The notes beneath the pieces were generated by a model, which was not told the DNA's origin, did no database searches, and worked only from the letters and a program-made list of their open reading frames with translations. The translations under genes and the position numbers were made by a program. 64,000 bases of DNA from Geosiphon pyriformis uo1 (lineage: Eukaryota; Fungi; Glomeromycota). Positions within the stretch are counted from its first letter, which is position 1; the number at the start of each line of letters is the position of its first letter. This document shows positions 3,971 through 62,209 of this stretch, in pieces. The stretch spans positions 41,951 through 105,950 of the forward strand of contig JAAOMT010000682.1 of assembly GCA_016748015.1 (NCBI GenBank), written 5' to 3'.

Positions 3971-3980
3971 TCCCAAACCC

Positions 3981-5351: not shown

Positions 5352-6200
5352 ATGTGCAGCAAATTAAATTAAGGAATTCAAATATATATAGCATTCAAAA
5401 AACAGCAAGAAATAATAAAACTTTCAACATAGACCTGTCAAATCAAATTCTACAACTTTTGAAACAACTATTTGACACAATTCAACAATCTTCTGCTCAA
5501 ATAGAAGTGACAATTAATAAAGAAAAAATATGCTATAAAAATAGGAGCAAAAAAAAGATGGGTGTGAGTTCAACTAGAACTAACTTTTTCCATCCCTACA
5601 CTCTGCCCAAGAAAAGAATTTTACAAAAAAAAATTAAATCATCTCAGACAAAGCTTGAAGAAAGCATGGAAGAATGAGAAAAAGTTTATAAAAGAAGATA
5701 CTTGGTCTCCAAGCTTGAAAAAATTAAAGAAGCTTTAGCTTATAGAATCAATCTTCCTGAAACAGGAGAATAGACACCAGACAATACAAAGAAATGAAAA
5801 GAAAAACTTTCTCCAGCTTATTGATTCTACAAAATAGATAAACAATTAAACTTAAAGATACCATATGGAGACTTCAGCCAGAAAACTTTCAACAAAAAAG
5901 CAATGCAACAAGTAGAAAAATTTGTAGAAAAAAGCAATTTGACCCTATATTACAAAGCAGCATATCGACTATATATTACTTTCCAACTTTGTCCAAATAT
6001 ATTGTTGTATGGATCTATAAAGATGATAACAGTTAACAACATAGGACAAATTACCAATTGACAGTTTGAAAACCTACAAAAAACAATATTTGACATAACC
6101 ATTAAATATTACATAAATGAAAATATAGAAACAGATACATATAATTTCACAAGAGCTCAATTCTAAAAAAAAGAGGAATAATGTTACTTGAGTAAAGAAA
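5352..6200 (+). pseudogene. ORF3, accessory protein of unknown function downstream of integrase (element A)
   Basis: ORF 5354-5677 plus downstream in-frame relics AYxFYKI...YKAAYRLYITFQLCPNILL...IGQITN; homologous to ORF3 of B, D, F, G. Confidence 0.72.
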
Positions 6201-13153: not shown

Positions 13154-13855
13154 ACAACCAAAAGAGTATATAAAAACACAGTATACATGACAAAAGCAAC
13201 AAAATAGAAATACCAGACTATATTCACACATTAGCTCAACAATTGTTTCAAGCTTTAAGTTAATAACAAGTCAACATGGAAATTATTATTAACAATTAAA
13301 TGATCTGTTATCAAAACACCAAACAAAAAAGGAAAAGTACACTATATCAGTGACTACAGAAACAATTAATAAACTGATTAGATAAAATAGTAGAGAAAAT
13401 AAAAAACACTTTTAGAAAAATAACCACCATAGTTTCAACAGAAGAACTGGTGAAAGAAAATTAGAACCAATAAATAGACCAACTTCTAATACCATACTGC
13501 TACTATCAATTGGGACGAAAAGTAGATATTCAAAAGTTATATCTTGACAAATCCAAAAGAATCTACAATTAAGAAATAGTTTGGAATATCAAAGACATTA
13601 TTGAAAAGAAAACAAACTTGACATTACACATTAAGACCATTTATTGACTACACACTATAATTCAAAACTACTCAGAAGTATTGTTATACTCTGACATGAA
13701 AACAATAACTATCAACCAATGAGAAAGAATAAACAATTCACAAATTGAAAAAATAAAGAGTAGGATGGAACAGATGCTACTTGAAAAAGAAGAAAATAAT
13801 ATTACTTATAAAAAGAAAACAGATATAGAAAATAGTAGACCAATAGGAGAATAGT
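13142..13855 (+). pseudogene. ORF3 of element B
   Basis: IPDYIHTLAQQLFQAL...MEIIINN.MICYQN; PYCYYQLGRK; TIYxLHTIIQNYSEVLLYS; frame continues through the PPT (LEKEENN) into the LTR. Confidence 0.65.
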
Positions 13856-20051: not shown

Positions 20052-20457
20052 TTAATTTTTTTTTTAATATTGAGCTCCTGTAAAATTAGTTGTGTCTGTT
20101 AATAGAACTTCATTTGTGTAATGTTTAATGGTTATGTCAACTATGGTTTTTTGTAGATCTTTAAACTATTGATTAAGTCATTTGTTCTATGTTGTTGACT
20201 GTTATCTTTTTCAAAAATCCATCCAATAATATGTTTGAACAATGTTGGAAAGCAATATATAATCGACATGCTGCTTTGTAGTGTAGTGTTAGATTGCTCT
20301 TTTTTACAAATTTTTCTACTTGTTACATTGCTTCTTTGTTGAAAGTTTTCTGGTTGTAGCCTTTATATGGGGTTTTTAAGTTTAATTGTTCTCCAATTTT
20401 GTAAAACCAATATGTTGAAAGGAGTCTTTCTTTCCACTTCTGGGCATTGTTTAGTGT
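20052..20457 (-). pseudogene. 3' half of ORF3 (element D)
   Basis: KWKERLLSTYWFYKIGEQLNLK...YKAACRLYIAFQHCSNILLDG; close to A's ORF3. Confidence 0.8.
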
Positions 20458-23400
20458 TTACTTATACTTGATATTTTTGGTTTGAAGCTGGTAAAATAGT
20501 TGAGCAAGTTTGGAAAAGTTTTTAATAAAATGGCAGTAGTAACTTGCAAATCTCAAGAATGCCCATAGTTTAATCAAGTTGATTGGTACTGGAAATTTCT
20601 TTACTATCTCAATCTTATCTGGATCTGTTTTGATGCCATCTTTGCTTATGACATGTTTCAAGAATTTTAATTCTGTTTTGCTAAAGAAGCATTTGTTTGT
20701 ATTCAATTTTAATCCTGTACATTTGAGTTTTTTGAAAACTTGTTGGAGATGATAAAAATGATTATCAAATGTTTTTAAAAACACATTGGTGTTATCCAAA
20801 TATACGACTACTGATTTTCATAGTAATCCAATGTAAACAATTTTCATTAATCATTGGAATATGGCTGGAGCATTTATTAAGCCAAATGGCATTACTTCAA
20901 ATTCAAAATTTCTCTTTTTTTTTGTGAATGCAGTCTTTTTTTTGTTGGCTAAATTTATGGCTACTTGCTAGTAACCACTATCTAAATCCAATGTTGAAAA
21001 CCATTTCTTTCCACTGAAAGCATCAAATAATTTTTGGATCTGTGAAATCAGATAACTGTCTCCATGAATAACTCTATTGAGTTTTCTATAATCCACACAA
21101 AAGCGAATTTTTCTGTTCTTCTTATGGACTAGTACTATTGGCAATGACCATAGACTCATGGATGGTTGAATTAATCTGTTGTCTAGCATTTGATTGATTT
21201 CTTGTCAGATGATTTCATGGCTGGCTGGTGGTATTCTGTATGCTTTTTGTTTAATTGGTATGACATTTCCAGTCTTAATCCAATGTTGAATAATGTTAGT
21301 TTTGCCAAACTTATTTTCACTCACAAAAATATCAGTGAAATTGTTAAGTAGCATTTTGATTTGTATATGTTGTAGTGAGTCTAAGTTTCCCAAGTTTATT
21401 TGTTTCAATTGTTCTGATTGGAGCAAATAACATTTATTTCATCCATATATAGCTTGTAATGTGATGTTCACATATTTACATAGTTGTGAGAAATCTGAAA
21501 TGTGGTTTGGTAATTGGTCCTCAACTTTAGTGGTTAAATATTCAATGATAGTTTCTTTTGGTATTTTGACAATGTCTCCAGTCATGTTGTAAATGGAGAT
21601 TTTAATATGATAATAGTTCTTGGCTGGTATATAGAGATTAGTAAGTCCAATCTCTTCTGACTCACAAATAGTTGGCTCTGCTTCAAAAATCTGGGCTTGA
21701 TCCTTTACTTTCTTTTCTATCATTAACATATACTAATCATATGATAGAATAGAAATTGGTTGACAGATGGAAATAATTTTTCTCTTGTCAACAACTTTTT
21801 CTTCTGTCATATTGACTGGTATGTCTATTCTATTCGTGAATTCAAATCCATTTATCCCTCTTGCTGTAATCCCTAATTTTTCCCTATTTTCTACTAAAAC
21901 TAACTGAACTACTTTAACCAAAGACAGAAATATTGCCTGTGCTATCTTTTTATTTGGTTCTATGATGTAGGTTTTTTCTGAGTTATTTTGTAACATTGCA
22001 ATAATATTTTTTACATATTCTGTATCAATTATTCCTCCTTGTATATTAATTTTCTTTTTTACTAAACTATTCTTAGATGCTAGTTAAACCATAGTAGTTG
22101 CTAAAATTTCCAGTGCTATTTTGAGATTAATACAGGTGTGCAAATGTGGTTCCAATTTGATGGCTTCTTTTCCTAAGTATTTCAAATCAAATTTTGTATC
22201 AGTATTATGTGCACATTCTGGCATAATATCTTTATTATTATCACTAAACTATTTAAGTTTCTGCTCCTTAAAAAGATTCAGAAGTATAATGTATTGTTTG
22301 GAATTTAAATTGGAGTTTGAATTGTTATTATTTTGGTTGTTATATTGGACAAAGCTGGAACCATTGTTATTATCATCATTGTTGTTGAAGTTTAAATTGG
22401 GATTAAACATTGATTCCAATTCAGATATACAGCTGTTAATTGGTTCTTTCTCTTCTAAAATTGTGTAGATCATGCATGATGGTAGATTGTAAATGAGGTC
22501 ACACTTATTACAATATTGAAAGTTACAGAGAATTAGACAATGTTGACACAGTTGAGTGTTCAACTGCTCTAAATGTTGTTCTTGTTCTTTCTTGGTATGT
22601 GTTAATTCTTGGTAATTTTTGTGAAATTGTTCTGGATCTATAGAGTCTAAGACAATATCTGAATTTGGGCCCCAATCAAGTTTTATAGGTTCTGGTAGAT
22701 TGTTTTTGATTGTTTTTATTTCTTTTGGTAATGCTTCTTTGATTTTGGTGAAGACCATATGCCAAATTTTATTATTGTTATGTGGACAACTGTCCAGATA
22801 TTTGACTGCTTGTTATCAAATGACTTCTATGGAAGTTTTTTTTCTTACCCAGTTACTAATTAGAATCATGTATTAGCACAATTTGTCACAAGTTTTTCCT
22901 CATCTAGAGATGTTATTTCATATTTTTTTATCTAACAGAGTCTCTTTACAAGTCATGCATAGCTCATTGTCTTATTTTTTTTGTTTTTTTGGTTATCCAA
23001 ACTGTTTGAAGATGCAGAAATGACAATAGAACTTTGTTGCCATTGGCCATTCCTTATTGTTGCTACAGCATGTGCCCATTGATGACAATTTCTTACCACA
23101 GTCGACACATACTAGCTTTGGTTGACAGTAGTTTGGCTGGTTTTGTGTGGTGGTGATGTATGGAGTATGAGTGAAGGTACTTGCTTGTGGTGAGTCATTT
23201 TCTATTTCTTTTTCTTTTTTTGTTGTTGTTTCAAGAAGGTATGGGCAGCAATTTATTGTGGTTTTTATTAGCCCACAAGACTTGGTAGGCTTCTCAAGTA
23301 GGTTTTTTCATTTCCTCTTTAAATTCAATTAGTGGTTGTGTGATGATTGGCTTGAAGTGTCCACAGATTGCTGATACTCATGTGTGATAATCATGTTGGC

Positions 23401-37363: not shown

Positions 37364-38178
37364 TGTTACCAGACAAAATTAGAGATATTGTTTAGCATGA
37401 AATTACCCTTATAATTCTTATCATTAGTTAGCATATATTATTGTCTCAAATTATCACTTATTACATTAGCAAAATATTCGAAATTATCATTTAATTAATA
37501 ACCCAATTTGTACATAACACAAATATAACCTAATTGTGATGATCAATCATACAATACTCCGAACTATATAACATTCAAAAAGTTTGCCAAAATTTGTAGA
37601 AATTCGCCGAAATAATTGATAGTTCACCGAAATATCTAATAGTTTGCAGAAATAACTTGTAGTTTGCCAAAATGTATCTCTAGTTCAGCGAAATTGTAAA
37701 AAATAGCAAAGTTTAAGTTCATAGAATAGTGTTACGACAAGTTGTATAAAAAAAAAGCTTCTCTTTTTGAAAAAATGTATCTTACTTCAGATTGAACAAT
37801 TAGAATTATTCTTTACACACAAAAACAAAATAAATATCAAATAATTTGAAAAGCCAAATTCTTAATTATTTCCCTTGAAATTAACCAATTCCTATTAACA
37901 GTTTGAAATTGACTAGCTACCAATTTCAGTAAACTGTTAAAGCACTTTCAGGCCTGGATCCAAAACGACTTCCATAAAACATTTTTACTTTTCTTTTACA
38001 TTTCTTTTATTTTCCTTCTTTTCTTATTATAAATCATTTGGGTAGCCTACAGACGAGAATTCCTGTAGAAAATTTGACTTTTACAGTAAAGTAACTACAC
38101 ATTTTAGTAAGCTTTTAGATAAGCATTTCCTAGAAAAGAGTTAACATTTACTATAATGTAACTATACAAAGTAACTGG
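37364..38178 (+). repeat. 5' LTR of G, first segment (continues at 47793-47956)
   Basis: Direct repeat of the start of 55860-56798. Confidence 0.92.
37581..37695 (+). promoter_or_regulatory. U3 array of six ~20-bp units with core AGTTCGCCGAAAT, upstream of a TATA-like box
   Basis: Units at 37581, 37601, 37621, 37641, 37661, 37682; TATAAAA at ~37745. Confidence 0.6.
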
Positions 38179-38876: not shown

Positions 38877-39064
38877 NNNNNNNNNNNNNNNNNNNNNNNN
38901 NNNNNNNNNNNNNNNNNNNNNNNNNNNNNNNNNNNNNNNNNNNNNNNNNNNNNNNNNNNNNNNNNNNNNNNNNNNNNNNNNNNNNNNNNNNNNNNNNNNN
39001 NNNNNNNNNNNNNNNNNNNNNNNNNNNNNNNNNNNNNNNNNNNNNNNNNNNNNNNNNNNNNNNN
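38877..39064. other. Assembly gap (188 N)
   Basis: Run of n. Confidence 1.
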
Positions 39065-39596
39065 TTGGGTTTTGTAGTACGTTTTCACAGGTGTGGAATA
39101 GGTCATAAAGTCTAAGAGCAGCTCTGAGCCTGTAGCGACTGTTTGTTGATCCAGCTGTTGTCTTGAATTCATTGTGGAGTTGTTTCTGAATAGCTTTTTT
39201 TGTGAGGTTTGCTGTTGTAAGTTCCAGTTTCCATTCGTAGAGTGTTTTTCCAATGTGAAAATATCTATAGATTGGAGGATATTTAGTGTTTTCCTTATTG
39301 AGACACAGTTGAAGTCTTTGTTGAATTGTAGCATTTGGTGGAATACTAATCAGAATGAGCATTAGATTTTCTCTTAAAGCAAGCTTTAAAAGTTCTGGCA
39401 GGTGAATTCCAGTATAACTTCTTGTGTTCTTTTTATACGGGTAATATTTTCATGAATTTGGGGCTAAATTTGTAACTACTTCTGTTTGGGTATAATTAAT
39501 GTAGTTTTCAGTAACAGTAATGGATAATTCAGGTATTGTTTTTAAAGCTAACATTAGTTTTTGGGATAATTGTTGAATGTTTTGAGGAATAGTCAT
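39065..39596 (-). pseudogene. ORF3 of element F (3' end in the gap)
   Basis: ATG at 39596: MTIPQNIQQLSQKLMLAL...IYRYFHIGKTL...LRAALRLYDLFHTCENVLQNP; one internal TGA. Confidence 0.78.
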
Positions 39597-39717
39597 TATA
39601 AGCAATTTGAAATAAAAAAAAATTATTTTTGGTGCATGGGTTTTTATGTTATTTTTGTTTTGTTTTTGTGAGATTGTTTCTAAATTATAAGAAAATAACT
39701 ATAATAATTAATTTAAA

Positions 39718-41103
39718 TTAAGTGTTCAAGTTGGGAGGCTGTTTAATGACAACTATTGATTCTAAATTTTGGGGAATATCTTCGGGATTGATTAAAGGGA
39801 AATGTGTACCAATTTATGGAATTAATGATTCAGGATTGTTTCTGGAATTATAGTGTTTCAAACAATCTCCATGTGCAACTTTTGCTAGAATTTTGTCATC
39901 AAGTCTTAGCTTGTATGATCCGTTGCCTAAAACTTTATGGATAAAAAATGGTCCATTCCATTTATTTTCAAATTTCTCACTCCATTGTTTTTCAGCTTTA
40001 GTTCTGTGTAAGAGAACTTTGTTTCCGATTTTAAATTTATTGGTGACTGGAGGCAATTTGTCATCATGCCATTCTTTTTGTCGAGCTTGGGAGTTTTCAA
40101 TATGGGTGGCTGCTATTCGTTGTTTTCCTTCCAACATGCTAAGCAGAGTGTAGACTCTTTGTTGAAGTGTTTCCTGAAAATTGTTTTTATTGATTGGTTG
40201 TGCTAGGTATGTTTCCACTGTGAACTTAATTGGTAGCATTGCTGTCCTTCTGTAAGTTAAATCAAATGGTGTGTGTTTTGTGGTATCTTGTTTTAGTGTT
40301 CTATATGCTAGTAACACTGATAGAATAAAGATATTCCATTTTTGCTCAAAATCGGTTGAGACTTTGGCTAATGACTCACACAATGTTCTGTTAAAATGTT
40401 CCACAAGTCCATTTGTTTGTGGATGGTAGGGCGAAGACAGAGGTCTTTTGACATTGAATTGTTCACAAATTTTTTGTATTAGGTTGTTCACAAAATGTGT
40501 TTCCTGGTAAGATAAAAGTTCAATTAGACATCCGTGTCTACAAATGATGTTTTCGTAGATGAAATTTGCTACTGATTTCGCATCTGCTCATTGAATGGCT
40601 CTGACTTCAGGCCATTTAGTAAGATAGTCTACAGCTACTGCAATATAACAGTTTTCTTGAGTGGTGATAGATAATGGTCCAACTAAATTGATACCAACTC
40701 GGTTAAAGAGTTGTTCAACTTTGATTGGATTTAATGGTTTAGTAGGGTGTGTTCCTCTTCTTCTTTGACAACTATCACAAGATTCGACATATTTGTGAAT
40801 GTCTTTCCTCATTCGAGGCCAAAAGTAGTATTCTAGTGTTCTTTGAGTGGTGCTATCTTTTCCGAAGTGTGCTGATGAAGGATTTGAGTGCATGTTGTAT
40901 AATATGATCTCTTTTTCCTGTTCTTGTATTAGTCTGAGTGGTTTGTCTGGGTTTTTGAAATTTCGATGATAAATAATGTTGTTGTGTAGAAAATATTGTT
41001 TGGCTTGTTGTTGTAGTTGATGTTTTTTATCTGGAGACCAATCTGTTGAGATTGTTAATGTTTCCAAATATTGTTTGAGATTGTTGTAGTTTTCTAAATT
41101 CAT
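39718..41103 (-). pseudogene. Integrase ORF of element F
   Basis: MHSNPSSAHF...CDSCQR (HHCC), GINLVGPL, HPQTNGLVEHFN, KWNGPFFIHKVLGNGSYKL. Confidence 0.93.
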
Positions 41104-41152
41104 TGTTTGTTGGCTTTTTTGGTTGGTTAAGTTGAGTGTTGGTTTTTGTTTT

Positions 41153-46787: not shown

Positions 46788-46807
46788 TTCTATGGGAGAG
46801 CACCAAA

Positions 46808-47788
46808 TGTTACCGGAGGTTTTTGGTCTCTTTTCTTAAATGTTGTCAATGCTTGTTTGCTGTGAATTCACGTTTTCTGGATGTGGTTGAACCTCCAGTA
46901 ACTGAATTTATCTTCAAATTATCTCTTATAATTTGAACTGCTGGGCTTATAAGTGGAATGGCCAATTCCATGCCAGTTACTTTATGTAGTTACGTTGTAG
47001 TAAACGTCAACTCTTTCCCAGGAATTGCTCGTCTGGAAGCTCACTAAAATGTATAGTTACTTTGCTGTGAAAGTCAACTCTTCTACAGAAATCTTGTCTG
47101 TAGGCTACCCTAATGATTATAGTAAGAAAATAAAAGAAAAAAAATAAAAAGATGTAAAAGAAATAAAATTCTGTCAAGAGAAACGTTTTCAATCCAGGCC
47201 TGGAGTCACTAACAGATTATTGAAATTGGTAGCTAATCAATTTCAAAACTTTAGTTGGGTTTTGAGAATTTTCCAAGTGCAATAATTAAAAAATTTGGTT
47301 TTTCGAATTATTTGATATTTATTTCTTTTTGTGTGTGTAAGAATGGTTCTAAGTGATAAATCTAAAGTAAGATACATTTTCTCGAAGAGAGAAGCTCTTC
47401 TTTTTATACAACTTGTCATAACACTATTCTATGAACTTGAACTTTGCTATTTTCTACAATTTCGCTGAACTAAAGATACATTTCGGTGAATTACAAGTTA
47501 TTTCTGTGAACTATTAGATATTTCGGTGAACTATCAATTATTTTGGCAAATTTCTATAAATTTTGGCAAACTTTTGAATGTTACATAGTTTGGGGTATTG
47601 CATAATTGATCATTGTAATTAGGTTACATTTGTGTTGTGTACAATTTGGGTTATTAATTAAATGATAATTTTGGACATTTTTGCTAATATAATAAGTAAT
47701 AATTTGAAATGATAATATATGCTAATTAATAATAGGAATTATAAGATAGTTTTATGCTCAATGATATCTCTAATTTTGTCTGGTAACA
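46808..47788 (-). repeat. 5' LTR of F (981 bp)
   Basis: TGTTACC...GGTAACA perfect 7-bp terminal inverted repeat. Confidence 0.94.
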
Positions 47789-47958
47789 CTGGCACAGAAT
47801 TGGCCATTCCACTTATAAGCCCAGCAGTTCAAATTATAGGAGATAATTTGAAGATAAATTCAGTTACTAGAGGTTCAATCACATCCAGGAAATGTGAATT
47901 CACAGCAAACAGGCATCAACAACATTAAGAAAAGAGACCAAAAACCTCCAGTAGCATT

Positions 47959-47976
47959 TGGTGCTTTCCCATGAAA
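47959..47976 (+). promoter_or_regulatory. Primer binding site of G
   Basis: TGGTGCTTTCCC, 2 nt after the LTR end; same arrangement in C, D, F. Confidence 0.75.
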
Positions 47977-47989
47977 ATAACACAGTAAC

Positions 47990-50900
47990 AACAACTTCAA
48001 AAGTGGCAACTCAAACAGATTCAAGAACTCTAGAGTATTATCAGTCAATCTACACCCACTGCAAGCAGAGATTTAACATCCCAGATGGAATTGAAACATT
48101 CAAGAAAACACTTTACCAGTACATTGAAAATTGCATCAACAATTATTTTCTTGGAGACTACAACATTTCAAAAGTTAGACACAACTTATATGAAAGCTTA
48201 ATACATCACTCTCATCTAAACACGCAGGATTTTAACAGTCAAACACTTGAAACATACTTCCAAGAACTCAACTTCAATATTATTCAGTATTGTGAAGAAA
48301 ATTACCCAGTAGAACAGAAATTTTCTCTTAGTTTTGAATCAGAAACCGAAGAAGGAAAAGGAAAAAGAAAACAAAAACTCAGAACTACTCCCAATACACC
48401 TAAAACCACTGCCAAACATTTACAAACTCCAGAACAAGGAACCAGCTTTAAATTATCACTCTCAATCATATCATTTCTAGCTTCACTTGCTCAACCGCAA
48501 ACACCAAGCTCATTACTTATTCAGTTTTCAAAAATAGATGATTTTCAGTCATTCAAAAGCTCTATTTAACAACAGAAACCAATATTAACCAGCACAAATC
48601 TTATTGACTACTTAGCAGAAAATCAAAGTAAAGAGACCGAATTAAAACAAGAAACAGAAGACTTAGAAAATAAAGAAAAAATGGTCTCCATATATATTGC
48701 AAAGATCCCTGAGTTCACAGGAGAAGACAGTGAAACCAGTCCTCAAGAATGGCTTAACAAAGTCTCAAAAGCAAGAGATACAAATGGTTGAAATACTGCC
48801 AGAATATTAAAAGCAATTCTATATTTCTTACAAGGAATGGCTGGCAAATGGTTTGAAAACTTGGAAGCCTCACCAGAAGACTGGAAAGCATTCAAAACTG
48901 CTTTCCTAGAACAGTTCACTGACAATAACACTTCCATTACCCTTCGAAATCGGTTCTGAAATATCAAGCAAGAACCAAGTGAATTAGTTATAACCTATCT
49001 TGAGAGATTCAACAAACTGCTTAGAAGGATTTGCCAATTAGAAACAAATAAATACTACTCTAATGCACAAATTTTGGATCAATTCATTGCTGGATTAAAA
49101 GACAAACTTATTAAGAAAGTTCGCCCACATGCACCAGAAGATTTAGCCACTGCTATTCAATAGGCAAAAAACTATGAAATGGCCATAGAAGAAGCCAACC
49201 GTACCAAACTTGTTAATCTGGCTATTGGAGAAACCAGCTTAGCAGCTGAAAAAAAGATTGACCAATTAACCAAGAAAGTTGAAAACTACTTCACCAACCA
49301 ACAGCAACAACAGCAGCCACAGCAATCACAACAACCACAAAAATACTAACCCTCACAAAGATGAAATCAAAATAACTTTGCACCACTTTCTAATAACCAG
49401 CCTCAGAATTGCCATTACTATGGAATCCCTGGCCACTGGAAAAGAGATTGCAGAAAGCTACAATGAGACCAACAAAATAGGAGTAATCAACGTTACTCTC
49501 TACTACAGCAATCTTATTATCAACCACTACTACTAGCTTACTATCCACCAAGACCCCAATACCAAAGTAACTATTATCAGCCCACTCCACAGCCAATCCA
49601 ACAGCAATACCAACAACCACCCACACAACATTATCAAGTGCCTGCTTGAAGATTGATTCCGCAAAATCAGTTCACACCACAAAACCGATACCAAGTAAAC
49701 AATAATAGAATTAATTTGAACAACCAATTGGTTCCCCGAAATTTAGCTCAACCAAGACCCAACCACTATCATACTCAACTTAGTTATTTTATGATGCCAG
49801 AAGAACAGGATTTTTGCCATACTGTACTCTCAGAAGGTAGAGCTGTAGCACAACAACAAAACCCTTTCTATACTCCTACCACAATCCCACCAGCCAGAAT
49901 TGCTAAAAATGCCAACCTTTCAGATATATTCCCTTTCGAATTTGAAGCAAATGAATTACCATTCTTGCTTAGCAATGCAGTGGCTAATGAGCAAAAAGCC
50001 ATCACTGCAATGTACACAAAAGCTGAAGTAGAAGGAAAGCCAATTCGCTTGATTCTAAACAGTGAATCTGCCAGAAGTATCATCACCTATCAATTGATGC
50101 AACAGCTAAAGAGAAATGTTGACTGACTAGCTCAGACAATCATTGTCACTGCTGATGGCATGAAAAAGACTCCAGTAGGAAAAATTGACAACTTCTCATT
50201 CATAATTGATGAAATCACCATTCCAGTCAAAGTTCTGGTCATGGATGCTCCCCAATACCAAGCTCTTGTCAAAAACAATTGGCTCCAAAAAGCCAATGCT
50301 AATCTGAATTGGGAGACACAAGAGTTAACAATCTTCTACCAAGGATGACATGCTTGAGTACCTGCTACTTGTGGTACATTTAATAAATGCTCCAAAAAAG
50401 CCCCGGCTTTTGAATTCGAACTGGAAGAAGAAAAACCCATCATTGAAACATTTATGGCACTTGAATCAATCTCTAATTGGGCTGATGAAACTGAAAAACA
50501 GTATTTTTCAACAAACAATTCTCTTGAAACAAAAAAATCAGTAACACTCAGATGGAATGTCCCCTATTCAAAACCAGAACCATGAAAACAACACCCTTAC
50601 ATTCCATTTAAATGCAAAGATTGCCACAAAAAACTCTCATCAATAGGAGCTTGTATTTCACCTGAGGAAGAATACAGAAACCATATCTGTTACTATTGCA
50701 AATCCTGCCACTGAGAATGATAGGGACACCTAGTCAAAAAAAGTGGAAAATAGGACAGAATGCCCTGTTTAACTTGTGGAGAACAATTACCTAATGAATG
50801 CAACTGGATTGATGTTGCATTCAGAGAAGGAGTCTGTGATCAAACATGTTAATATGCTTTTTTAATCTCAGAAAAAGTAACAAGAGAAACCTTTTTTGAT

Positions 50901-53606
50901 GCTGCTTACAACAGTGTCCTCAACAAACTGTACCATTACCCTCATGATGCCGAAATGATTTTTGATCTAACAATGGCTTTAATCAATAGAGCCACTCAAG
51001 AAAATGTTTGTCAAATAAAAGAATCAGAATACATTGTATACACTTTTGAAATCACTGGATACAACTATGAAGATGAAGTAGAAGTATATTACCAAATTGC
51101 CAGTCACACTTACCCGACTAAAGAAGCTCAAGCTCAATGGCTAGAGCAAATAAACATTAAATTGTGTAAAGAATGCATAATGCCTTGTGATGAGCAATGG
51201 TGCCCTGAATGCTATGCTCTTAGCATTCCCCTGCCCAGTGAAAATAATGAAAACAAAATTGAATTTGGAGAACCTAAAGCAACAAAAAAAATTGAAGCAA
51301 CACTCATCTATCTTATCAAAAATCAGCCTGCCTTACAACTCAAATACTTCAACAACAATAGATAAGAAATAAAAACCGAAAAAGCACATGAAATTGATGC
51401 TGAATATGACCTAAGATATCCAAACAAGAATACTCTTGTTCTCAAACCCAAATCTCTCACAAAAATCAATCTCAAAATTGCCCTTGAAATTCCACCAGGA
51501 GCAATGGTTCAAATCACCTCCCAGTCCTCTCTGACAAGCAAAGAAATCAATGTCAAAGGAAGAATAATCAATACTAGATATACTGGTGATATAACAGTAA
51601 TACTCTAAAATGAAACCAATAAACCTTTCAAAATTGAACATGCTAAAAAAATTGCTCAAGCTATCTATTTACTCTTAATCAATATTTTGGGTTTACAGTT
51701 AGTCAATCAAAGAGAACAATTGGGAAAAAGCGAAAGAAAAACACAAAGTTTTGGTTCAACTGGATGATTCACAGTTCCAGTAAACATAGCTCTCAATAAA
51801 CAGAAAAAATCTCACCAGTTTCTACAACTTCCACAACCAATTACCATTTCACTTTTTGGAGAACATCATGAAGTTTACACATGTGAAAACCTCATGACTA
51901 CTCAACAAATCTTTGAATCCAATGAACAAATTTGCTTAGAACACAACATTTCAATCCCAAACATCTATGTTCCAAGAGGAGCAAAGAAAGTCCAAGTTAC
52001 TTTTTACAATCTCAACTATCAACCCGTTATTTTATTGAACAAGTTAGAAATAGGAGTCATTCACAGCAACATCTTTCAGCAGGAACAACCCCAAACAGTT
52101 TTAAATTTCTCAGAAATCATCGAACACTCTTTACCAAAAATCAGCCCCAGACCAAGCTTTGAAAACTACCATGTTGTTATGAAAAAACTATCTCGAATCA
52201 ACATGGAACAACTAGAACCATACCAACAAAAACAGCTTAAAAAGCTAATAGCAGAATTTGCCAATATCTTTGCTAAAAACAACAATGACCTAGGAAAAAC
52301 TGATTTAGTACAACACCAAATTTATATTGGAGATGCCAAACCAAGATGACAACAAGCCTACCAAGTTGCTCTAGAAAGTCACCAATTTATCCGAAATGAA
52401 GTACAATGGATGCTTAACAATGGGCTTATTCAGCCATCAATAAGTCCATGGGCCTCACCTGTGGTCCTAGTTAAAAAGAAAAATGGAAAGATATAATTTT
52501 GTGTTGATTATTGACAACTCAACAGTGTCACTATTGGAGATGTCTACCCTCTTCCCTGAATTGATGACATGCTGGATGCTCTTGGGAAGTCCAAATACTT
52601 TTCGACATTAGATTTAGAGAGTGAATACTGGCAAGTTGTCATGGATTCCAAAAATTGCCCCAAAACAGTATTCACTACTCAAAGAGAAAATTACGAGTTC
52701 AACATAATGCCTTTTGGATTATGCAATGCACCAGCAACATTCCAAAGACTCATGGATGTTGTTTACAAAGGCTTTCTTTGGAAATCAGTAGTTGTCTATC
52801 TTGATGATACTGATGTTTATTCACTATCTTTTGAATTACACTTAAAATATCTGCACGAAGTCTTTCAACAATTATAAAAAACAGGATTGAAACTGAACAT
52901 TAAAAAATGCTACTTTGGAAAAACAAGTTTGGCCTTTCTTGGTCACATTGTTAGTAAAGATAAAATCAAACCTGATCCAAGAAAAATAAGCACTGTTAAA
53001 AATTTCAAAACTCCTCAAAATACTACAGAACTAAAAAAATTCATTGGATTAGCATCCTACTATTGGAAATTTATCAAAAAATTCTTAGAAATTGCAAAAC
53101 CCCTCAACCAGCTTACCACCAAAAACGTTGAATACAAATAGACTATTGAACACCAAAAAGCTTTTGAAATTCTCAAGAAAAAACTGACAACAGCTCCAAT
53201 TCTTGCCTACTCAGACTTCAGTAGCCAATTTCAATTAGCAACAGATGCTCCATACACTATCTTTGGTGCCATCTTGTCACAATTAAATGACAATGGAAAT
53301 AAGTGAGTAATTGTTTATGCCAGCAGAACATTAAAACCAGCTGAAAAAAATTATCCTGCCACTGAATTGGAAACAACAGCTGTAATTTGGGCCCTACATC
53401 ATTTCAACCTTTATCTCTGGCCAAAGGAATTTGATATTATCACTGATAATATTGGACTCAAATGGCTTCAGAACAAAAACACTCAGCTGAATATCAAACA
53501 AACCCAATGGACAGAATTTTTAGCCAACTACTAATACATTGTACACTACAAACCAGAAAAACTCCATACCAACATTGATTGTCTCTCCAGAATGAGACAA
53601 AATTAG
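47990..53606 (+). pseudogene. Element G gag-PR-Cys-rich-dUTPase-RT-RNase H (single frame with point stops)
   Basis: ORF-track pieces at 47958, 49653, 50160, 50955, 51894, 52569 and 52887 are all in one frame; knuckle ~49410-49451; dUTPase ~51380-51770; YLDD ~52797; ends NIDCLSRMRQN*. Confidence 0.93.
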
Positions 53607-53654
53607 AAAACACAAATCAACACTCAACTTAACCAACCTAACAACCAACAAACA

Positions 53655-55037
53655 ATGAATTCAAAAGACTACAACAATCTCAAACAATATTTAAAGACAT
53701 TAACAATCTCAACAGATTGGTCTTCAAATGAAAACCATCGATTACAACAAGCCAGACAATATTTCCTACACAACAACATTATTTATTATCAAAATTTCAA
53801 AAACTCAGACAAACCACTCAGATTAATACAAGAACACAAAAAAGAGACTATATTATACAACATGCACTCAGATCTTTCATCAGCACACTTCAAAAAAGAC
53901 AGCACCACTCAAAGAACACTAGAATACTATTTTTGGCTCTAAATGAAAAGAGACATATATCAATATGTTGAATCTTGTGATAATTGTCAAAGAAGAGGAG
54001 GAACATGCCCTATTGAACTTTTAAATCCAATCAAAGTTGGACAACCTTTTGACCAAATTGGTATCAATTTAGTCAGACTGCTACCTATTACCATGTAAGG
54101 AAACCGATACATAGCAGTAGCAATAGATTATCTTACCAAATGGCCCAAAGCCAGAGCTATTCAACAAGCAAATGCAAAATCAGTAGCAAATTTTATCTAT
54201 GAAGACATTATTTGTAGACATAAATGCTCAATTGAACTTCTATCCAATCAGGGAACACATTTTGTGAATAACCTGACACAAAAAATTTGCAAACAATTTA
54301 ATGTCAAAAGACTTTTATCTTTGCCCTATCATCCACAGACAAATGGATTAGTGGAATGTTTCAACAGAATATTGTGTGAATCACTAGCCAAAGTCTCAAC
54401 AGATTTTGAGCAGAAATAGAATATCTTTATTCCATCAGTGTTACTAGCATATAGAACACTAAAACAAAATACAACGAAACACACACCATTTGACCTTACT
54501 TATGGAAGAACAGCAAAACTACCAATTGAATTCACAGTAGAAACATATCTAGTACAACCAATCACAAAAGAAAACTTACAAGAAACACTTCAGCAAAAAG
54601 CTTATACTCTTCTTAGTATTTTAGAAGAAAAAAGACATATAGCAGCCACCCACATTGAAAATTCACAAGCCCAACAAAAAGAGAGACATGACAACAAACT
54701 GCCACCAGTCACCAATGAATTTAAAATTGGAAATAAAGTTCTCTTATACAGAACTAAAGCTGAAAAACAATGGAGTAGAAAATTTGAAAATAAATGGGAT
54801 GAACTATTTTTTATTTATGAAGTTCTAGACAACAGATCATACAAGCTAAGACTTGATGACAAAATCCTAGTAAAAGTTGCACATGAAGATTATTTGAAAC
54901 ACTATAATTTCAAAAACAATCCTGAACCATTAATTCTACAAGTTGGTACACATTCTCCATTAATCAATCCTGAAGATATTTTCCGAAATTTAGAACCAAT
55001 AGTTGTCATTGAACAACCTCCTAACTCGAACACTTAA
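53655..55037 (+). pseudogene. Integrase ORF of element G
   Basis: ATG at 53655; MHSDLSSAHF, CDNCQR, DYLTKWP, SNQGTHF, HPQTNGLVE. Confidence 0.92.
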
Positions 55038-55171
55038 TTTAAATTTACTATAGTTATTCCCTTATAAATTAAAAATTGATTTTACAAAAACAAAACAAAA
55101 ACAAAAATAACATAAGTTCACATACCAAAAATAATTTCAATCTATTTTTTTCTCTTACTCAAGTTTTTATA

Positions 55172-55891
55172 ATAACTATCCCTCAAAATATTTAACAAAT
55201 ATCTTAAAAATTAATGCTAACTTTAAAGACAATACCTGAATTATCTATCACTATTACAGAAAAACATATTAATTATACCCAAACAGAAATAGTTGCCAAT
55301 TTAGCCCCAAATTCACGAAATTATCACTCCTACAAAAAGAACACAAAAAATTATTCTGGAATTCATCTACCAGAACTTTTGAAGCTTGCTTTAAGAGAAA
55401 ATTTAATGTTCACCCTTATTAGTATTTCACCAAATGCTACTATTCAACAAAAACTTTAATTGTGTCTTAATAAAGAAAACCACAACTATACTTCAATATA
55501 TAGATATTTCTACATTGGAAAAACACTTCACAAATGAAAATGGGAGCTTACAGCAGCAAACCTTACAAAAGAAGCTATTCAGAAACAACTCCACAATGAA
55601 TTCAAGACAACAGCTGGACTTATAAATAGTCACTATAAACTAAGAGCTGCTTTTAGACTTTATGACCTATTTTATACTTATGAAAATGTCCTACAAAACC
55701 CAATTTTACAACCACTGAAGATCCAATACATTGGAAAACTCACAGAACTGAAATTTCAACAATTTTCAGACCAAATTTCTTCAGTAATTTTGGATTACTA
55801 TTTGGAATGTGCAGACAGTACTTGGACTTCAATGGAGCTCAGTCTTGAGGAGGAGGTTATGTTACCAGATGAAATTAGAGATATTGTTTAA
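55172..55891 (+). pseudogene. ORF3 of element G (~239 codons), overlapping the PPT and the start of the 3' LTR
   Basis: Start decayed to ATA; colinear with F ORF3; ends ...SLEEEVMLPDEIRDIV* inside the LTR. Confidence 0.78.
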
Positions 55892-56798
55892 CATAAAATT
55901 ACTCTTATAATTCTTATTATTAGTTAGCATATATTATTGTCTCAAATTATCACTTATTACATTAGCAAAATATCCGAAATTATCATTTAATTAATAACCC
56001 AATTAGTATATAACACAAATGTAATCTAATTGTGATGATCAATTATGCAATACCCCGAACTATGTAACATTCAAAAAGTTTGCCGAAATTTGTAGAAATT
56101 TGCCAAAATAACTTGTAGTTTGCCAAAATGTATCTCTAGTTCAGTAAAATTGTAGAAAATAGCAAAGTTCAAGTTCATAGAATAGTGTTATGACAAGTTG
56201 TATAAAAGAAGAGCTTCTCTTTTCGAGAAAATGTATCTTACTTCAGATTGAACAATTAGAATCATTCTTTATACACAAAAACAAAATAAATATCAAATAA
56301 TTTGAAAAGCCAAATTCTTAATTATTTCTCTTAAAATTAACCAATTCCTACTAACAATTTGAAATTGACTAGCTACCAATTTCAGTAAACTGTTAAAGCA
56401 CTTCCAGGTCTGGATCTGAAACAACTTCCATAAAACATTTTTACTTTTCTTTTATATTTCTTTTATTTTCCTTCTTTTCTTATTATAAATCATTTAGGTA
56501 GCTTACAGATAAGAATTCCTGTAGAAGAGTTGACTTTCACAGTAAAGTAACTACACATTTTAGTGAGCTTTCAGATAAGCATTTCCTGGAAAAGAGTTGA
56601 CATTTATTACAATGTAACTATACAAAGTAACTGGCATGGAATTGGTCATTCCACTTATAAACCCAGCAGTTCAAATTATAGAAGATAATTTGAAGATAAA
56701 TTCAGTTACTGAAGATTCAACCACATCCAGGAAACGTGAATTCACAGCAAACAGACATCAACAACATTAAGAAAAGAGACCAAAAACCTCCAGTAACA
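55860..56798 (+). repeat. 3' LTR of G (939 bp)
   Basis: TGTTACC...CAGTAACA after PPT 55847-55859. Confidence 0.94.
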
Positions 56799-59700
56799 CT
56801 GTGTAAACTTCAATACAATTAGACCAAACCTCTATCAGACTACTATAGACATCAGAAAATACTTTAGATTCCAAAACACTTAACACTGGTAAATTAGGAG
56901 CATCAGTAGATCCAGCTCCCAAAAAACATGTTTGCTTATAAACTCAGCTGCCAAAGTGAACCAATAAGGTACAGGTTCTCTCAAATCCAACTTTTTCCAC
57001 TGCCAAAATGTTTTCCATTCTATTACCCTCCCCTTTTTGTCCAAAAGCTTATTATCAAAAGCAACACCAAAATGCTTTAAAGAAAGAACAAAGTCATAAT
57101 ACAAGAGGTGACCCAAGATGCTAGACATTAAAAATCTGCCAGATCTATGAAAAGCACTGAGCAAATTGTTAGCCAAAGATAGCTCATTTTCTAAAAAAAT
57201 CTTTACCATACCAGTCAAAAAATTATTTACAGAACTAACTTTCAATCTGACAGAATACTATAAAGGGTCCAAAAAAGACCACCCCAAAATTTGTAAATCC
57301 AAAAATCTGTGTTCAAACAGATGTCCAAGAATGCCACAGACATTGGAAAAGGAAATTAACAAGACTAATTTACCTTCAGACTGCACTTGCTCAAAAGGTT
57401 TCACACCATATAGAGAAAAATAATGTAAAGTTTTACTGAGAAAATTACATGATAAGCCAGCCTTAAACCTGAGATCTCTTTTCATCAAAGTGTCCCACTT
57501 GTGACATACAGCCAAAAAGACAAAACTAAATTGTATACAATAACTAATTATTGGTTGTAAGACAGCCAAAACCAAGTATGAAAATTGTTTATCCGTGATA
57601 GTCTTTTTTAATACCACATTGGAAAAAAACCTAACATTAGCATAAGCTTGAGCCAAGCTAGGTTTAGAGAGACTTTTAGTAGACAAAAAAATGTTCAGGT
57701 ATCTGTGAGCTTTATCTTTTTTGCAATGGAAATTGGCAAGCCATTAATCAACAGAGAAACAGACTTAACACTTTGATTGATTGGAATAGCCACTGTCTTA
57801 TCATTATTAATCAAAATGTCATTGACCTCAAAAAACTTACTAGTAATGTTTAAAATATACTGCATGGAAGTCTGACAACTTCTAACCCAAATTGTATCAA
57901 CAAAGGCACCAGCAGCCAAAAAAAAAGTCTTCTTACCAGTCACTTTAACCCTACCCAATCTAGTCACAAACCTGGTATCAATTCTGTATTTACATAAATG
58001 CTCTTGTCTTTTAACTTCACACAAAAGTAGATCATAAAAAATTTTCCAGAGAAAAGAAGAGAAAACCTTATCCTAATCCAAGCTATTATGCACTCTATAA
58101 CCATCTGAAAATCTAAAATCTGTCATCACCCTATTAACTCTGTTCTCATGAATGTTACCAAAAAACTTAATAAACTGACTGCATATTTTGATACAGTGCA
58201 GGCTAGTCTTCAAATAATGCCAGCCTACCAAATTATAGGCTTTGCACATGTCTTGCAACACAAGCCAGAGCTCTCTATTTTTTTCCAAAACATTCTCTAC
58301 AACTGACCCAATAGCAAAAATAGAAGATTGAGTTGAAGTGCTTTTCAATACTGAGAAGTTATAACTACAAAAAACGTTGAATTTACTGCAAGCCAAAAAT
58401 ATTCAATTAAAAAGGATCTTTAACAATATCTTCTGGGCTGTTTTGATCAAAACAATAGGCCTAGTGTTTGTTAAAACCCTATTCCATTCATAAGGTTTTG
58501 GAATTATTGAAACTCATGCCCTCTTCCAAGAGGTTAAGACAGCACCAGACAACAAACAAGTATTCAACAGCCCTAAAAAACAAGCCAACACCTCTCCATT
58601 ACAATGCTTCCAAAGTTTATTAAGAATTCCAGACAAACCTGCAGCCTTATTATTAGGCAAATTACTGATCACTAAAGACAATTTACTTATGGTAACCTTC
58701 TTCATAACACCAAAAAAAACAACATTATCCACATAATCCAGAAGCATATATTGACAAGACCAAAGATCAGGCACCCTTGGGAGTACTGACCACTTTCTTG
58801 TCTACCTTTCCATGATTTCATCAATCTTAAGCTTAACCTTCTTAGACTTAACTATCATTTCATCATCTACCACTAAGTGATCTAAAACAACTTTGTGAAA
58901 CAGCCGATCCAGAATGCTTTTAATCATCCTTCCTCTGTTAGAACAGAAATTTTCCATCTGATGGTTAATAGCCTTACTAATCTTAGTATTCTCAGCCAAT
59001 TTAGATTCATAATACTTAGACTTTCAATATTTTTTCTTTATCACTAACAGATGCTTAATTAAAGTCATCGAACACACACTATTAGAAACTATGCCAAACA
59101 CTTTAGATGTCTCAACCTTATTAATAGAAGTCCTAATAAAATGATTAATATTTAAAAAATCTCCAGAATTCCAGCAATTTACAATTTTAACAATAAGCAG
59201 CTCCAGTTTATAAAATTTAGAGGAATGTTTGTTTTTTAAACAATCATATTCACTAAACCAGCTTTTAGAAAACACTTCAATAGCAGCCTGTACCATGACT
59301 TCTTCTAACACACTCTATATCATATCCAAGTTATCACTATCTTTTGCAGTTCTGAATGTAGAAAACCTGGCCAACAACTTGGCAGAAGAACACTTTTTAA
59401 AATGCAACTACTGAACATTATCAGCATTCTTTAACTTGAACTTCTATTGATCTCAGTTGGCCTGCTTACAAGCACTGATAAGACAAGCATTCAGAAGTCC
59501 ATCCAAACCAATTGAAACCAAAACTGACTTATGATCTATATCAAAAAACCTGAAGACATTATTAACTGTTTGCAATACAACTGCAGACCTCAGGTTTCCA
59601 TTCACAAAGATAAAATTGATAATCTTCTTAACACCTCTAGAATTGCTTCAAGTAGGAGCTTTGGTTAATGCATATTTATTGAAAGTATTAACCAGACCCA

Positions 59701-60202
59701 AATCTAAGCAGAACTTGAAACTAGCACTCCTTTTGGATCCATTTTCATTAAAGTTACCACCCAAGACCACAAAAAAGCTAGACTTAACCACCTTAGATAT
59801 CAAAGAGTTGACATCAGCAGCCTGGCCAAAATGAGTACTAATGGAAGCACTAGCATAAAAATCCAAGATAAAAACCGAAAGCTTATTCTTAAATAGAAGA
59901 TGCACAGAAATTAACTGACCAGAAACCTCTTCCCCTATAGAAACATAACAAGCCAAAGAATTGTTCATGATTATGGCAATCCCAGCACCAAAAAAACCTG
60001 TATCCAAACCAGAAGTGAAAACCTGAACACCATTGAACTTATTCTTCATCCACAACTTAATGTTAGACTTAAATTTTGTCTTTGTAATAATTGAAACCAT
60101 GTTCTCTGATTCTATATGCCAACAAACAACATTATTCTGCTTGGCAGGAACATTAACACTTTGAATATTGCATGTAGCAAATTTCCAAACCAAATCACTT
60201 AT
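56799..60202 (-). pseudogene. LINE H ORF2 5' part (APE, RT)
   Basis: WKFATCNIQSVN, LGGNFN, RPIVLIK, LQDMCKAY, AAGAFVDTIW. Confidence 0.9.
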
Positions 60203-62082
60203 TGAAAAATAAGAGAAGCTGATAAGCCCAAACCAGAGCACAAATGATCCAACTTCTTTAAGACTGACTCAACTGATACTTCCAAAGCCACCAACTTAGA
60301 TTCCAATCCACCCACTTTGGTGGTCAAAAACTTTAGAACTACTCAAGCTAAGATTAGCAACTTTGTCTGCAACAATCAAAAGAGGAAGGATGAGAAATGC
60401 CAGCATATTATCCAGAACCATATTTAAATTCAAACCAGAATCCAAAGGCACTGGAATGACCAAAGGTGATGCAGAAGACTTAGATGCCAAGGGCACTAAT
60501 TTCACAAAGCTCAGTTTTTTTATAATAACAGAAATTTGATCTGTCAAAAGCTCCAAAAATCATTCCAAGACTATTAAACAATTAATTAAGTTAGAGGCAT
60601 TAGCAGAAGTGAAAGAAAGGGTACCACCCAAATCTGAGACACCAAGAGGAAGAAAACTAAAACCAGACCCAAAACGAGCACCACCAAAAGACTTAGCAAG
60701 TAAGACTACTTGGGCCCAAGATTTGCCACCAAAAGCAGCAGAGCAAGAGATTAGAACACTTTTTTTTTTATACAACTTAGCAAGCTGAAAGCAAACTTTC
60801 TCTGGGGCAACCTTTTTATATGATTTCTTAGATGATAGTAGCACAATTGTATCTAATGTATCATATTCAAGGACCAAATGCCCAAAACACCTACACTTCT
60901 CACAACAAATCAAATTCATCCTAGCCCAAGAGAGTTTTACTTTACCGAAGATAAGCTCTGTGCAAAAAGCAGATTCCAGATCATTATCAAAGGCAAAACC
61001 AATCACAGTGCAGCAAATCTTATTACCAGTTTCTATAAATCTGTTTATAATACAAGTCTTTTCACCAGCCCTTTTCAAAAGAGTGCCCAAATCATGAGCA
61101 GTTGTTCCTACTGGCAAAGTAAACAGTAAAGCTCTGAACCAATTTCTTGATGTCCACATATCATGATCTCCCACAGCCATAGCCACACGTATTGAATCCT
61201 TACCAATCAAAAAAAACCACTTAGCAGCCAAACACTCAGTCTGATCTAGTTCAGCAAATTCTATCACAGCTTTTTGTCACATTCCAATTAGCTGAATTTT
61301 GATTGACTTAATTTCTCCAAACTCAGTTAATACAACAATAATCATTTCCTTTGGCATGTTCATGGAAATTTTTTTGATGACCACAGTCCGATCTGAGCAA
61401 ATTCCTTGTTTTTTGAGATCACTGTTTATGTTGATCCTCTTTTTTCTGGCCAATAAAGTGGCTATTTCTATACTTTTTCAGAAGTGAAGGTAGATCTAAT
61501 GATCCCTTCAAATTTTGAGAGAATAGTGGCTCCCCCAAAACCATTGACAAAAGAAAAAATTTTTCTAACCAACTGAGTCTTTACTATAACAGATTTGTTT
61601 TTTACTACCAAAAGATTGATATCCAAAGCAAATAATTTCCTAACAGCAACTTCTATAGAAGTTTTCATAATTTTAGGATCTATTCATCTTTTTTTCAAAG
61701 ATATATTAAGGGAGGGTGGGAGAGGTTCCACTTCTTTTTTTATTTCATAATTAGGGGAGCCAAGAAAGGATCCAAGAATCACACCAGTATTTACTCTTTT
61801 TACTTTAGAAGTATTAGCTGCCGAGCCCAAGAGAGACTTACTGTTAATATCTTCTATAATTATATTGTTTTTACTACAACTAGACTTACTATTCAGATCC
61901 AAATACATGCTATCAGAACCAGGTTTAACCAAAAAAATGTCTCTTTCATTACTTGAATATTTAACATTGCCAAGAACCACCTTTTTTTTCTGAGAGAAAG
62001 AACCACTAACAGAACCATAGAAAGCATTTTTAGGTGCCTTTTTCTTAAATATATTACTGCTAAATGCAGCTTTTAAATCCAT
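60199..62082 (-). pseudogene. LINE H ORF1
   Basis: RALLFTLPVGT, CEKCRCFGH knuckle, FGGKSWAQVV; homologous to LINE I ORF1. Confidence 0.82.
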
Positions 62083-62209
62083 GATAAAAGAATTATTAGT
62101 TAAAAAAATGTTGATATAAACTAACAAAAAAAAATAAAAAACTTCTTTTTTAGAAATACATTCTTTAGGGGGTTTTTTTTAAGATATAAGAGAGAAAGAA
62201 GTTTTTTTT

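What the first reader, a model, noticed from the sequence alone, without database searches (positions are those of the whole stretch)
55172..55891. Conserved non-env accessory ORF3 that reads through the PPT into U3
Seen: a ~230-280-codon frame after IN in A (5352-), B (13142-), D (20052-20457), F (39596-) and G. Protein-level motifs are shared despite little DNA identity: I.P..I..L.Q.L...L...I.I....I.Y; Y.[FY][YF].[IL]G; [AT][AI].RL[YH]..[FI]...[NE][IV]L; IG.[LI]T...F. In G the PPT encodes EEE and the stop is ~30 nt inside the LTR; B and D also run into the LTR. No signal peptide or TM helix is visible. Inference: a soluble helical accessory factor (trans-activator or anti-silencing protein), positioned like nef/sag.
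Basis: partly seen in the sequence, partly recalled or inferred. Interest (0 to 1): 0.8.

Follow-up and report, generated by a model that had tools for sequence, protein, structure and literature searches.

The report
Third gene of fungal gypsy retrotransposons
This is a decayed copy of a real, conserved extra gene at the tail end of a lineage of fungal jumping genes that also keep their integrase as a separate gene; its small membrane-free protein matches no known family and likely helps the element switch on its own expression, though that job is untested.

Summary
The frame is real. 55172-55891 is a broken copy (start reads ATA, three internal stops) of a 239-codon gene; 209 relatives were found and the 120 listed are all Geosiphon pyriformis proteins, many full length. 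Copies F and G show dN/dS 0.23, like RT and integrase. One profile finds the gene in A, B, D, F and G; two metagenome lineages carry it at 27-30% identity, one in the same position. No transmembrane segment; no env, Nef, Sag, chromo or TAV match; a confident all-helical core with no significant fold match. Only weak hints point to a helix-turn-helix-like nucleic-acid binder. Read-through of the PPT is not universal: families A and D stop at the tract in another frame, and the read-through tail is low-confidence, so it is probably incidental. Best guess: a trans-acting activator of the element's own expression (0.4).

The parts
55172..55891 (+). ORF3 of element G, 239 codons, pseudogene copy (ATA at the start, 3 internal stops)
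55172..55282 (+). N-terminal module of ORF3: helix plus beta-hairpin, conserved in all families, low pLDDT
55424..55810 (+). All-helical core of ORF3 (about residues 85-213), confident model, HTH-like pair of helices around a conserved G-x-x-N turn
55847..55856 (+). Polypurine tract, read as Glu-Glu-Glu in ORF3 of the G family
55860..56798 (+). 3' LTR of G (TG...CA), followed by 4-bp target duplication CTGT; ORF3 stop 32 nt inside
56077..56129 (+). Three 13-nt repeats at 20-nt spacing in U3; candidate protein-binding array (untested)
55038..55171 (+). 134-nt G-poor (3% G) spacer between integrase stop and ORF3 start, non-coding (dN/dS 1.5)
53655..55037 (+). Integrase as a stand-alone ORF2 with its own ATG (H2C2, rve; no chromodomain)
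53604..53654 (+). Stop codon ending RNase H plus 48-nt G-free A/C-rich spacer
48702..53606 (+). ORF1, one frame: Gag - protease - Cys-rich domain - dUTPase - RT - RNase H (start not fixed)
37364..38178 (+). 5' LTR of G, first part (preceded by CTGT duplication)
47789..47956 (+). 5' LTR of G, last part, split off by insertion of element F (38179-47788, minus strand, CTGG duplication); tRNA-type primer site follows at 47959
39065..39596 (-). ORF3 of element F (same family, 77% identical), ATG intact, cut by N gap
5429..6166 (+). ORF3 of element A (other family); stops at the first codon of the PPT
13204..13854 (+). ORF3 of element B (third family); probably reads through the PPT
20064..20463 (-). 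C-terminal half of ORF3 of element D (A family), joined to RT by an internal deletion; stops at the PPT

Best explanation
ORF3 is a conserved third gene of a fungal Ty3/gypsy lineage laid out as gag-pol, separate integrase, ORF3, and its ~230-245-residue membrane-free protein likely binds the element's own nucleic acid through a predicted helix-turn-helix-like core and likely acts in trans to keep the element expressed. Shown: the gene, its position against the PPT, purifying selection, inheritance with the integrase, absence of a transmembrane segment. Predicted: the all-helical core. Inferred: that it is made from its own short (subgenomic) RNA, enters the nucleus, binds repeats in the LTR and raises transcription or opposes CpG-methylation silencing, in the manner of VANC or foamy-virus Tas (both recalled as analogies, not homologues). 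The acidic tail made by reading through the PPT is likely a by-product of packing the gene against the tract, at most an optional activation tail.
For: Gene: 209 hits among 319 candidates, 68 of the 120 listed pass a loose full-length filter; dN/dS F vs G 0.23 (95% bootstrap 0.14-0.37; RT 0.23, IN 0.29, spacer 1.5); second codon positions most conserved between families (0.55-0.61 against 0.35-0.48); same position in L001. ORF3 identity follows integrase identity (A with B, F/G with L001) but is far lower, 18-30% against 47-56%, as expected of a lineage-specific factor. Fold: core pLDDT 82, pTM 0.72. Binding hints, all below significance: DUF1016_N in 4 of 46 members, best E 0.037; profile-profile score 18.1 against 8 DUF1016_N sequences, above 40 of 40 column shuffles (max 16.1) and the reversed profile (11.9); five ParB/Spo0J/SopB/KorB DNA-binding domains among 50 rows, Z 3.2-4.1; core alone: Orc6 Z 5.9, CHD1 C-terminal domain Z 5.5, sigma-F Z 5.0 with rmsd 2.3 over 57 residues; residues 131-170 carry 7 basic against 3 acidic residues. 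Context: 68 of 86 CpG sites differ between F and G against 24-35% of other C contexts, the mark of methylation decay; CG methylation of TEs is reported in Rhizophagus (10.1101/2021.03.30.436303, passages); phased short repeats in U3 differ between families.
Against: No match reaches significance: Foldseek best E 1.3, 0.13 and 1.7; VIA Z under 6, where the tool says under 8 (13 for helical bundles) may be a common arrangement; the ParB rows did not stay in the top 50 when the core was searched alone; hhalign probability 0.93%, E 0.059. The invariant columns are mostly structural (N, F, L) and pI ranges 5.4-9.8. LTR repeats are common in retroelements and may bind host factors. No expression data. 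A stand-alone integrase gives an equally good motive for a translation or packaging role.
Confidence: 0.4

Rival explanations
1. ORF3 is a particle or integration cofactor. Because integrase is not part of the Gag-Pol polyprotein it cannot be packaged passively; ORF3 would bring integrase into the particle, chaperone the RNA, or tether the integration complex to chromatin in place of the missing chromodomain.
For: Integrase is separate in 5 of 5 elements and ORF3 follows it in every element that has one; integrase has no chromodomain; best VIA rows are chromatin-associated helical domains; nearest named Atlas cluster is a filamentous-virus coat protein, 0.93.
Confidence: 0.2
2. ORF3 is a translational transactivator like caulimovirus TAV/P6: the last gene of a polycistronic retroelement that lets ribosomes restart after the long ORF1 and translate integrase.
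For: Stop, then a 10-62-nt spacer with 0-2% G, then ATG in 5 of 5 elements, 3 of 5 out of frame, which fits restart or internal entry rather than read-through. TAV is the 3'-most gene behind a 106-bp spacer with its own promoter (PMC5902531, passages); G has a 134-nt spacer.
Against: No Pfam match to caulimovirus ORF VI in 46 members at E<=1; that review says no TAV-like activator was known outside Caulimoviridae; cis-acting termination-reinitiation or a subgenomic RNA needs no protein; ORF3 is less than half the size of TAV (recalled).
Confidence: 0.13
3. ORF3 is a counter-defence protein acting on host proteins or small RNAs (RNA-silencing suppressor), without sequence-specific DNA binding.
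For: Fast divergence with purifying selection; small-RNA silencing of TEs is reported in a related fungus; LTR elements cover 41.2% of the G. pyriformis genome (PMC11952901, passages).
Against: No similarity to a known suppressor in Pfam, PDB or BFVD; nothing specific points to it.
Confidence: 0.17
4. ORF3 is an env-like or membrane protein for cell-to-cell spread.
For: It sits in the env slot.
Against: No hydrophobic segment or leader in 13 of 13 proteins, 1-3 cysteines; no env family hit.
Confidence: 0.03
5. ORF3 is a captured host fragment or chance frame carried without function.
For: All five copies in the window are broken; the +1 shadow frame also gives dN/dS 0.36; nearest Atlas cluster is an unnamed 190-aa Mucoromycota family whose genomic context could not be seen.
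Against: dN/dS 0.23 equal to RT; kept in frame and position across families only 18-30% identical and in a separate metagenome; the +1 value is the expected shadow of the coding frame and the +2 frame gives 1.5.
Confidence: 0.03

Closest known systems
Additional ORFs of unknown function in fungal Gypsy elements (Novikova et al. 2010, PMC2864245, Fig. 3 legend; passages seen, supplement in old .doc not read)
   Same: Fungal Ty3/gypsy element with an extra ORF of unknown function; dUTPase between protease and RT is also described there.
   Different: No sequence link tested; the passages seen describe gag and pol in one or two ORFs and mention neither a stand-alone integrase nor an ORF against the PPT.
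Non-env ORF3s of bdelloid rotifer LTR retrotransposons (PMC5408684, passages)
   Same: Family-specific ORF3 in the env slot of dUTPase-bearing elements, a separate expression unit.
   Different: Those are GDSL esterases, DEDDy nucleases, coiled-coil or TM proteins; this one matches none and is conserved across several families.
VANC anti-silencing proteins of VANDAL transposons (PMC13547354, passages; mechanism partly recalled)
   Same: Proposed way of working: fast-evolving element-encoded factor acting on its own repeats.
   Different: DNA transposons of plants; no sequence or fold similarity found; activity untested here.
Caulimovirus TAV/P6 (PMC5902531, passages)
   Same: 3'-most gene of a polycistronic reverse-transcribing element, behind a ~100-130-nt spacer.
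   Different: No homology; TAV-like activity not tested.
Lentiviral nef and MMTV sag (recalled)
   Same: Coding frame crosses the PPT into U3.
   Different: nef and sag lie largely in U3; here only ~10 codons do, and families A and D stop at the PPT; no Pfam match.
DUF1016_N / DUF3102 / ParB-type helical domains of bacteria
   Same: Similar helix pattern (Y-x-x-IG-x-x-L ... G-x-x-N ... R-x-Y-x-x-F) and weak profile, feature and fold hints.
   Different: All scores below significance; no nuclease or ParB catalytic partner domain.

Membership tests
Ty3/gypsy LTR retrotransposon (host element) | Order gag-PR-RT-RH-IN between LTRs with PBS, PPT and target duplication | tested here: met
Ty3/gypsy LTR retrotransposon (host element) | Integrase made as part of the Pol polyprotein | tested here: not met
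   stop after RNase H and new ATG in 5 of 5 elements; mechanism of expression not tested
Ty3/gypsy LTR retrotransposon (host element) | RT phylogeny inside a named clade | not tested
   no reference set was fetched
Chromovirus | Chromodomain at the integrase C-terminus or in ORF3 | tested here: not met
   no Chromo hit at E<=0.1 in G or L001 integrase nor at E<=1 in 46 ORF3 proteins
Env / env-like ORF3 | Signal peptide and transmembrane anchor | tested here: not met
   max 19-residue hydropathy 0.44-1.29 in 13 of 13; no dedicated signal-peptide predictor was run
Env / env-like ORF3 | Similarity to a fusion glycoprotein | tested here: inconclusive
   none listed in Pfam, PDB or BFVD searches
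Nef / Sag | Sequence family match | tested here: not met
   no such Pfam family among the 18 that matched any of 46 members at E<=1
Nef / Sag | Coding region lies largely in U3 | tested here: not met
   32 nt in G; none in A and D
Caulimovirus TAV/P6 | Sequence family match | tested here: not met
Caulimovirus TAV/P6 | Activates reinitiation after long ORFs | not testable with these tools
   needs a bicistronic reporter
VANC-type anti-silencing factor | Binds own-element repeats and removes methylation | not testable with these tools
   U3 repeats and CpG decay are context only
DUF1016_N / ParB-type HTH domain | Significant profile match | tested here: not met
   best E 0.037, under the curated cut-off; hhalign probability 0.93%
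DUF1016_N / ParB-type HTH domain | Shared fold | tested here: inconclusive
   Z 3.2-4.1 whole model; not in the top 50 for the core

The most novel reading that the evidence does not exclude
A fungal LTR retrotransposon lineage has become truly tricistronic, with integrase freed from Pol, and ORF3 is the element's own trans-acting factor that makes this work: a TAV-like reinitiation activator or an integrase-recruiting cofactor, which would be the first such factor outside Caulimoviridae and a new protein fold family, in the elements that fill about 40% of the Geosiphon genome.
Probability: 0.2. Interest if true: 0.85.

Novelty: new variant of a known kind. Interest (0 to 1): 0.52.

Why it matters
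Extra ORFs in the env slot of LTR elements are a known class, but few in fungi have a function. This one is a new protein family, kept under the same selection as RT across at least four Geosiphon families or subfamilies and two metagenome lineages, in the element class that covers 41.2% of the G. pyriformis genome (PMC11952901). Many intact copies exist, so it is directly testable. If it is an activator or anti-silencing factor it would help explain how these elements expanded against CpG methylation; if it serves the stand-alone integrase it would be a new way for a retroelement to express and package its enzymes. It also shows that more than 200 annotated 'hypothetical' Geosiphon proteins are transposon cargo.

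Tried and rejected
Own genome not held, so no genome-wide copy census or family dN/dS. No RNA run was listed; no evidence either way on expression or splicing. Homodimer prediction gave no verdict (0.07). Foldseek PDB and BFVD: no match at E<=0.001. PDB sequence searches: best E 0.31 and 0.095. FtsQ hit (NCBIfam, 27 of 53 members, best E 4e-4; also PDB E 0.31) rejected: confined to one family's sequences as far as the alignment shows, and FtsQ's alpha/beta domain (recalled) does not fit the all-helical model. phrog_23683 (21 of 46, best E 1.4e-4): one 45-60-residue stretch, G family only, unknown function; left as an unexplained lead. Closterovirus coat protein (Atlas 0.93, 154 features) below the tool's mark. 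Phage tblastn: 3 records at E 8. Viral contigs: 0 of 409 pattern matches confirmed. Third homologue search with a divergent profile: 48 hits among 3609 candidates, none new outside Geosiphon. Rfam: 0 matches at E<=1 in 53400-56900. dN/dS between distant families was not computed because synonymous sites are saturated; codon-position identity was used. 'Read-through is a conserved feature' rejected (A, D). Literature: 8 full-text searches listed no paper describing this ORF or a stand-alone integrase in Glomeromycotina; the Geosiphon genome papers were not in the listings and were not seen, nor were any supplements, which may hold element annotations.

Full report
Setting. The window is a nest of decayed retroelements. 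Element G is a Ty3/gypsy LTR retrotransposon with a 3' LTR at 55860-56798 and a 5' LTR split in two (37364-38178 and 47789-47956) by the inverted insertion of its relative F; both carry 4-bp target duplications. The 120 listed relatives of ORF3 are all Geosiphon pyriformis proteins, 60-86% identical, so the window is from that fungus or a close relative (inference). LTR sequence covers 41.2% of that genome (PMC11952901, passages).

Observation. The frame 55172-55891 has 239 codons, begins 134 nt after the integrase stop with ATA where F has ATG, and holds three stops. The PPT purines read as EEE and the stop is 32 nt inside the LTR. 209 database proteins among 319 candidates match; 68 of the 120 listed are 221-245 residues with a start Met and the PPT tail by a loose filter.

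It is a gene. F against G over 176 codons gives dN/dS 0.23 (0.14-0.37), against RT 0.23, integrase 0.29, gag 0.13; the +2 frame and the spacer give 1.5, the +1 shadow frame 0.36. Between families second positions are the most conserved. A profile search of 1.84 billion representatives gave 36 hits; of the nine of them looked up, two are outside Geosiphon: P0158 (E 5e-16) and P0160 (E 6e-12), from metagenomes; the other hits were not traced. Locus L001 shows P0160 behind an integrase and reading through the PPT into an LTR; L002 holds a P0158-like gene behind an integrase end and an extra 128-codon ORF. ORF3 identities follow integrase identities but are lower (18-30% against 47-56%): inherited with the element, evolving fast.

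The read-through. In every family ORF3 runs up to the conserved motif just before the PPT. In the frame used by G, L001, P0158 and probably B, the tract is open and gives an acidic tail; in the frame used by A and D the first codon of the tract is a stop. What follows the LTR start varies even within the G family, and residues 215-239 have pLDDT under 50. The tail's conservation is therefore explained by the DNA element beneath it; the nef/sag likeness is positional.

The protein. No hydrophobic segment in 13 of 13 proteins. AlphaFold2 gives a low-confidence N-terminal helix and beta-hairpin, a basic disordered linker and a confident helical core (mean pLDDT 82, pTM 0.72 for the core alone). 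No Pfam, PHROG, NCBIfam, PDB or BFVD match is convincing. Several weak hints agree on a helix-turn-helix-like nucleic-acid binder: DUF1016_N (E 0.037, 4 of 46); hhalign 18.1 against 8 DUF1016_N sequences, above 40 of 40 shuffles but probability 0.93%; DUF6192 and DUF3102 clusters at 0.86-0.88 in the Atlas; ParB-type domains at Z 3.2-4.1, which fell out of the top 50 for the core alone, where Orc6 (5.9), the CHD1 C-terminal domain (5.5) and sigma-F (5.0) led. None is significant. The nearest Atlas cluster is an unnamed 190-residue family of 98 members, mostly Mucoromycota (0.93, 173 features); from memory, Rhizophagus has a high-copy hypothetical family with a similar helix pattern, a lead I could not test.

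RNase H ends in a stop, followed by a spacer with 0-2% G and an ATG that opens integrase, in A, B, F, G and L001 (5 of 5; spacers 10, 62, 49, 48, 24 nt; 3 of 5 out of frame). Decay could have shifted a spacer by a base, but the shared stop and new ATG in elements only ~50% identical point to a stand-alone integrase. An earlier unchecked note (e1-7415188) reports a split integrase in another genome, there with overlapping stop and start. So the element has three genes, and both downstream genes need reinitiation, internal entry or subgenomic RNAs (established rule of eukaryotic translation).

Mechanism. I commit, at 0.4, to a trans-acting factor that binds the element's own nucleic acid, most likely LTR DNA, and sustains its expression against CpG methylation, whose mark is plain (68 of 86 CpG sites changed between F and G; TE methylation in Rhizophagus). 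U3 holds short phased repeats that differ by family and are the first targets to test. Rivals: integrase/particle cofactor (0.2), RNA-silencing suppressor (0.17), TAV-like reinitiation factor (0.13; PMC5902531, passages), env-like (0.03), passenger (0.03).

Comparison and novelty. Extra ORFs of unknown function are drawn for fungal Gypsy elements (PMC2864245, passages), non-env ORF3s are described in rotifers (PMC5408684, passages) and reviewed generally (PMC6431247, passages); accessory TE proteins such as VANC are discussed in PMC13547354 (passages). Eight searches listed no description of this protein or of this three-gene layout in Glomeromycotina; the Geosiphon genome papers and all supplements were not seen. 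Other windows of this scan hold third genes of fungal gypsy elements, but a sequence look-up found no look-alike. Verdict: a real gene of a new family in a known kind of slot, within an unusual tricistronic element; function inferred only. New variant of a known kind; interest 0.52.

Noticed in passing
window 53604-53657; 41103-41160 (-); A near 3960-3985; B near 11700-11775; L001 772-801: Integrase is a stand-alone ORF: stop after RNase H, G-free A/C-rich spacer of 10-62 nt, new ATG, in 5 of 5 elements.
   Followed up: partly
window 50403-51299 (and 886-1626, 7605-8321, 43460-44308 minus, 22477-23109 minus): A ~300-residue cysteine-rich domain between protease and dUTPase, strongly conserved (dN/dS 0.13), no Pfam match at E<=0.1; several CxxC pairs suggest zinc fingers.
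   Followed up: partly
L002 425-811: An extra open 128-codon ORF between integrase and ORF3, no Pfam match: a possible four-gene variant.
   Followed up: partly
window 38179-47788: Element F (LTRs 97% identical over the sequenced part) is inserted inverted into the 5' LTR of its relative G (LTRs 89-93% identical); 4-bp target duplications CTGG and CTGT.
   Followed up: yes
window 55172, 5429, 13204: The ORF3 start reads ATA in three of the four copies that have one, in line with the general C-to-T/G-to-A decay; CpG sites are hit hardest (79%).
   Followed up: partly
window 56077-56129, 6232-6346, L001 3401-3574: Short U3 repeats with 10- or 20-nt phasing in G and A; a TTTGCC core is shared by G and L001 repeats.
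   Followed up: no
window 29900-36000 (+) and 56900-62200 (-): Two decayed non-LTR (L1/Tx1-like by eye) elements with endonuclease, RT and RNase H-like regions, 65% identical; not analysed.
   Followed up: no
window 34541-37360: A 63% self-complementary region (blastn), apparently ends of two opposed elements.
   Followed up: no
window 47959-47970 and after 46808 (-): tRNA-type primer site beginning TGG two bases after the 5' LTR; the tRNA was not identified.
   Followed up: no
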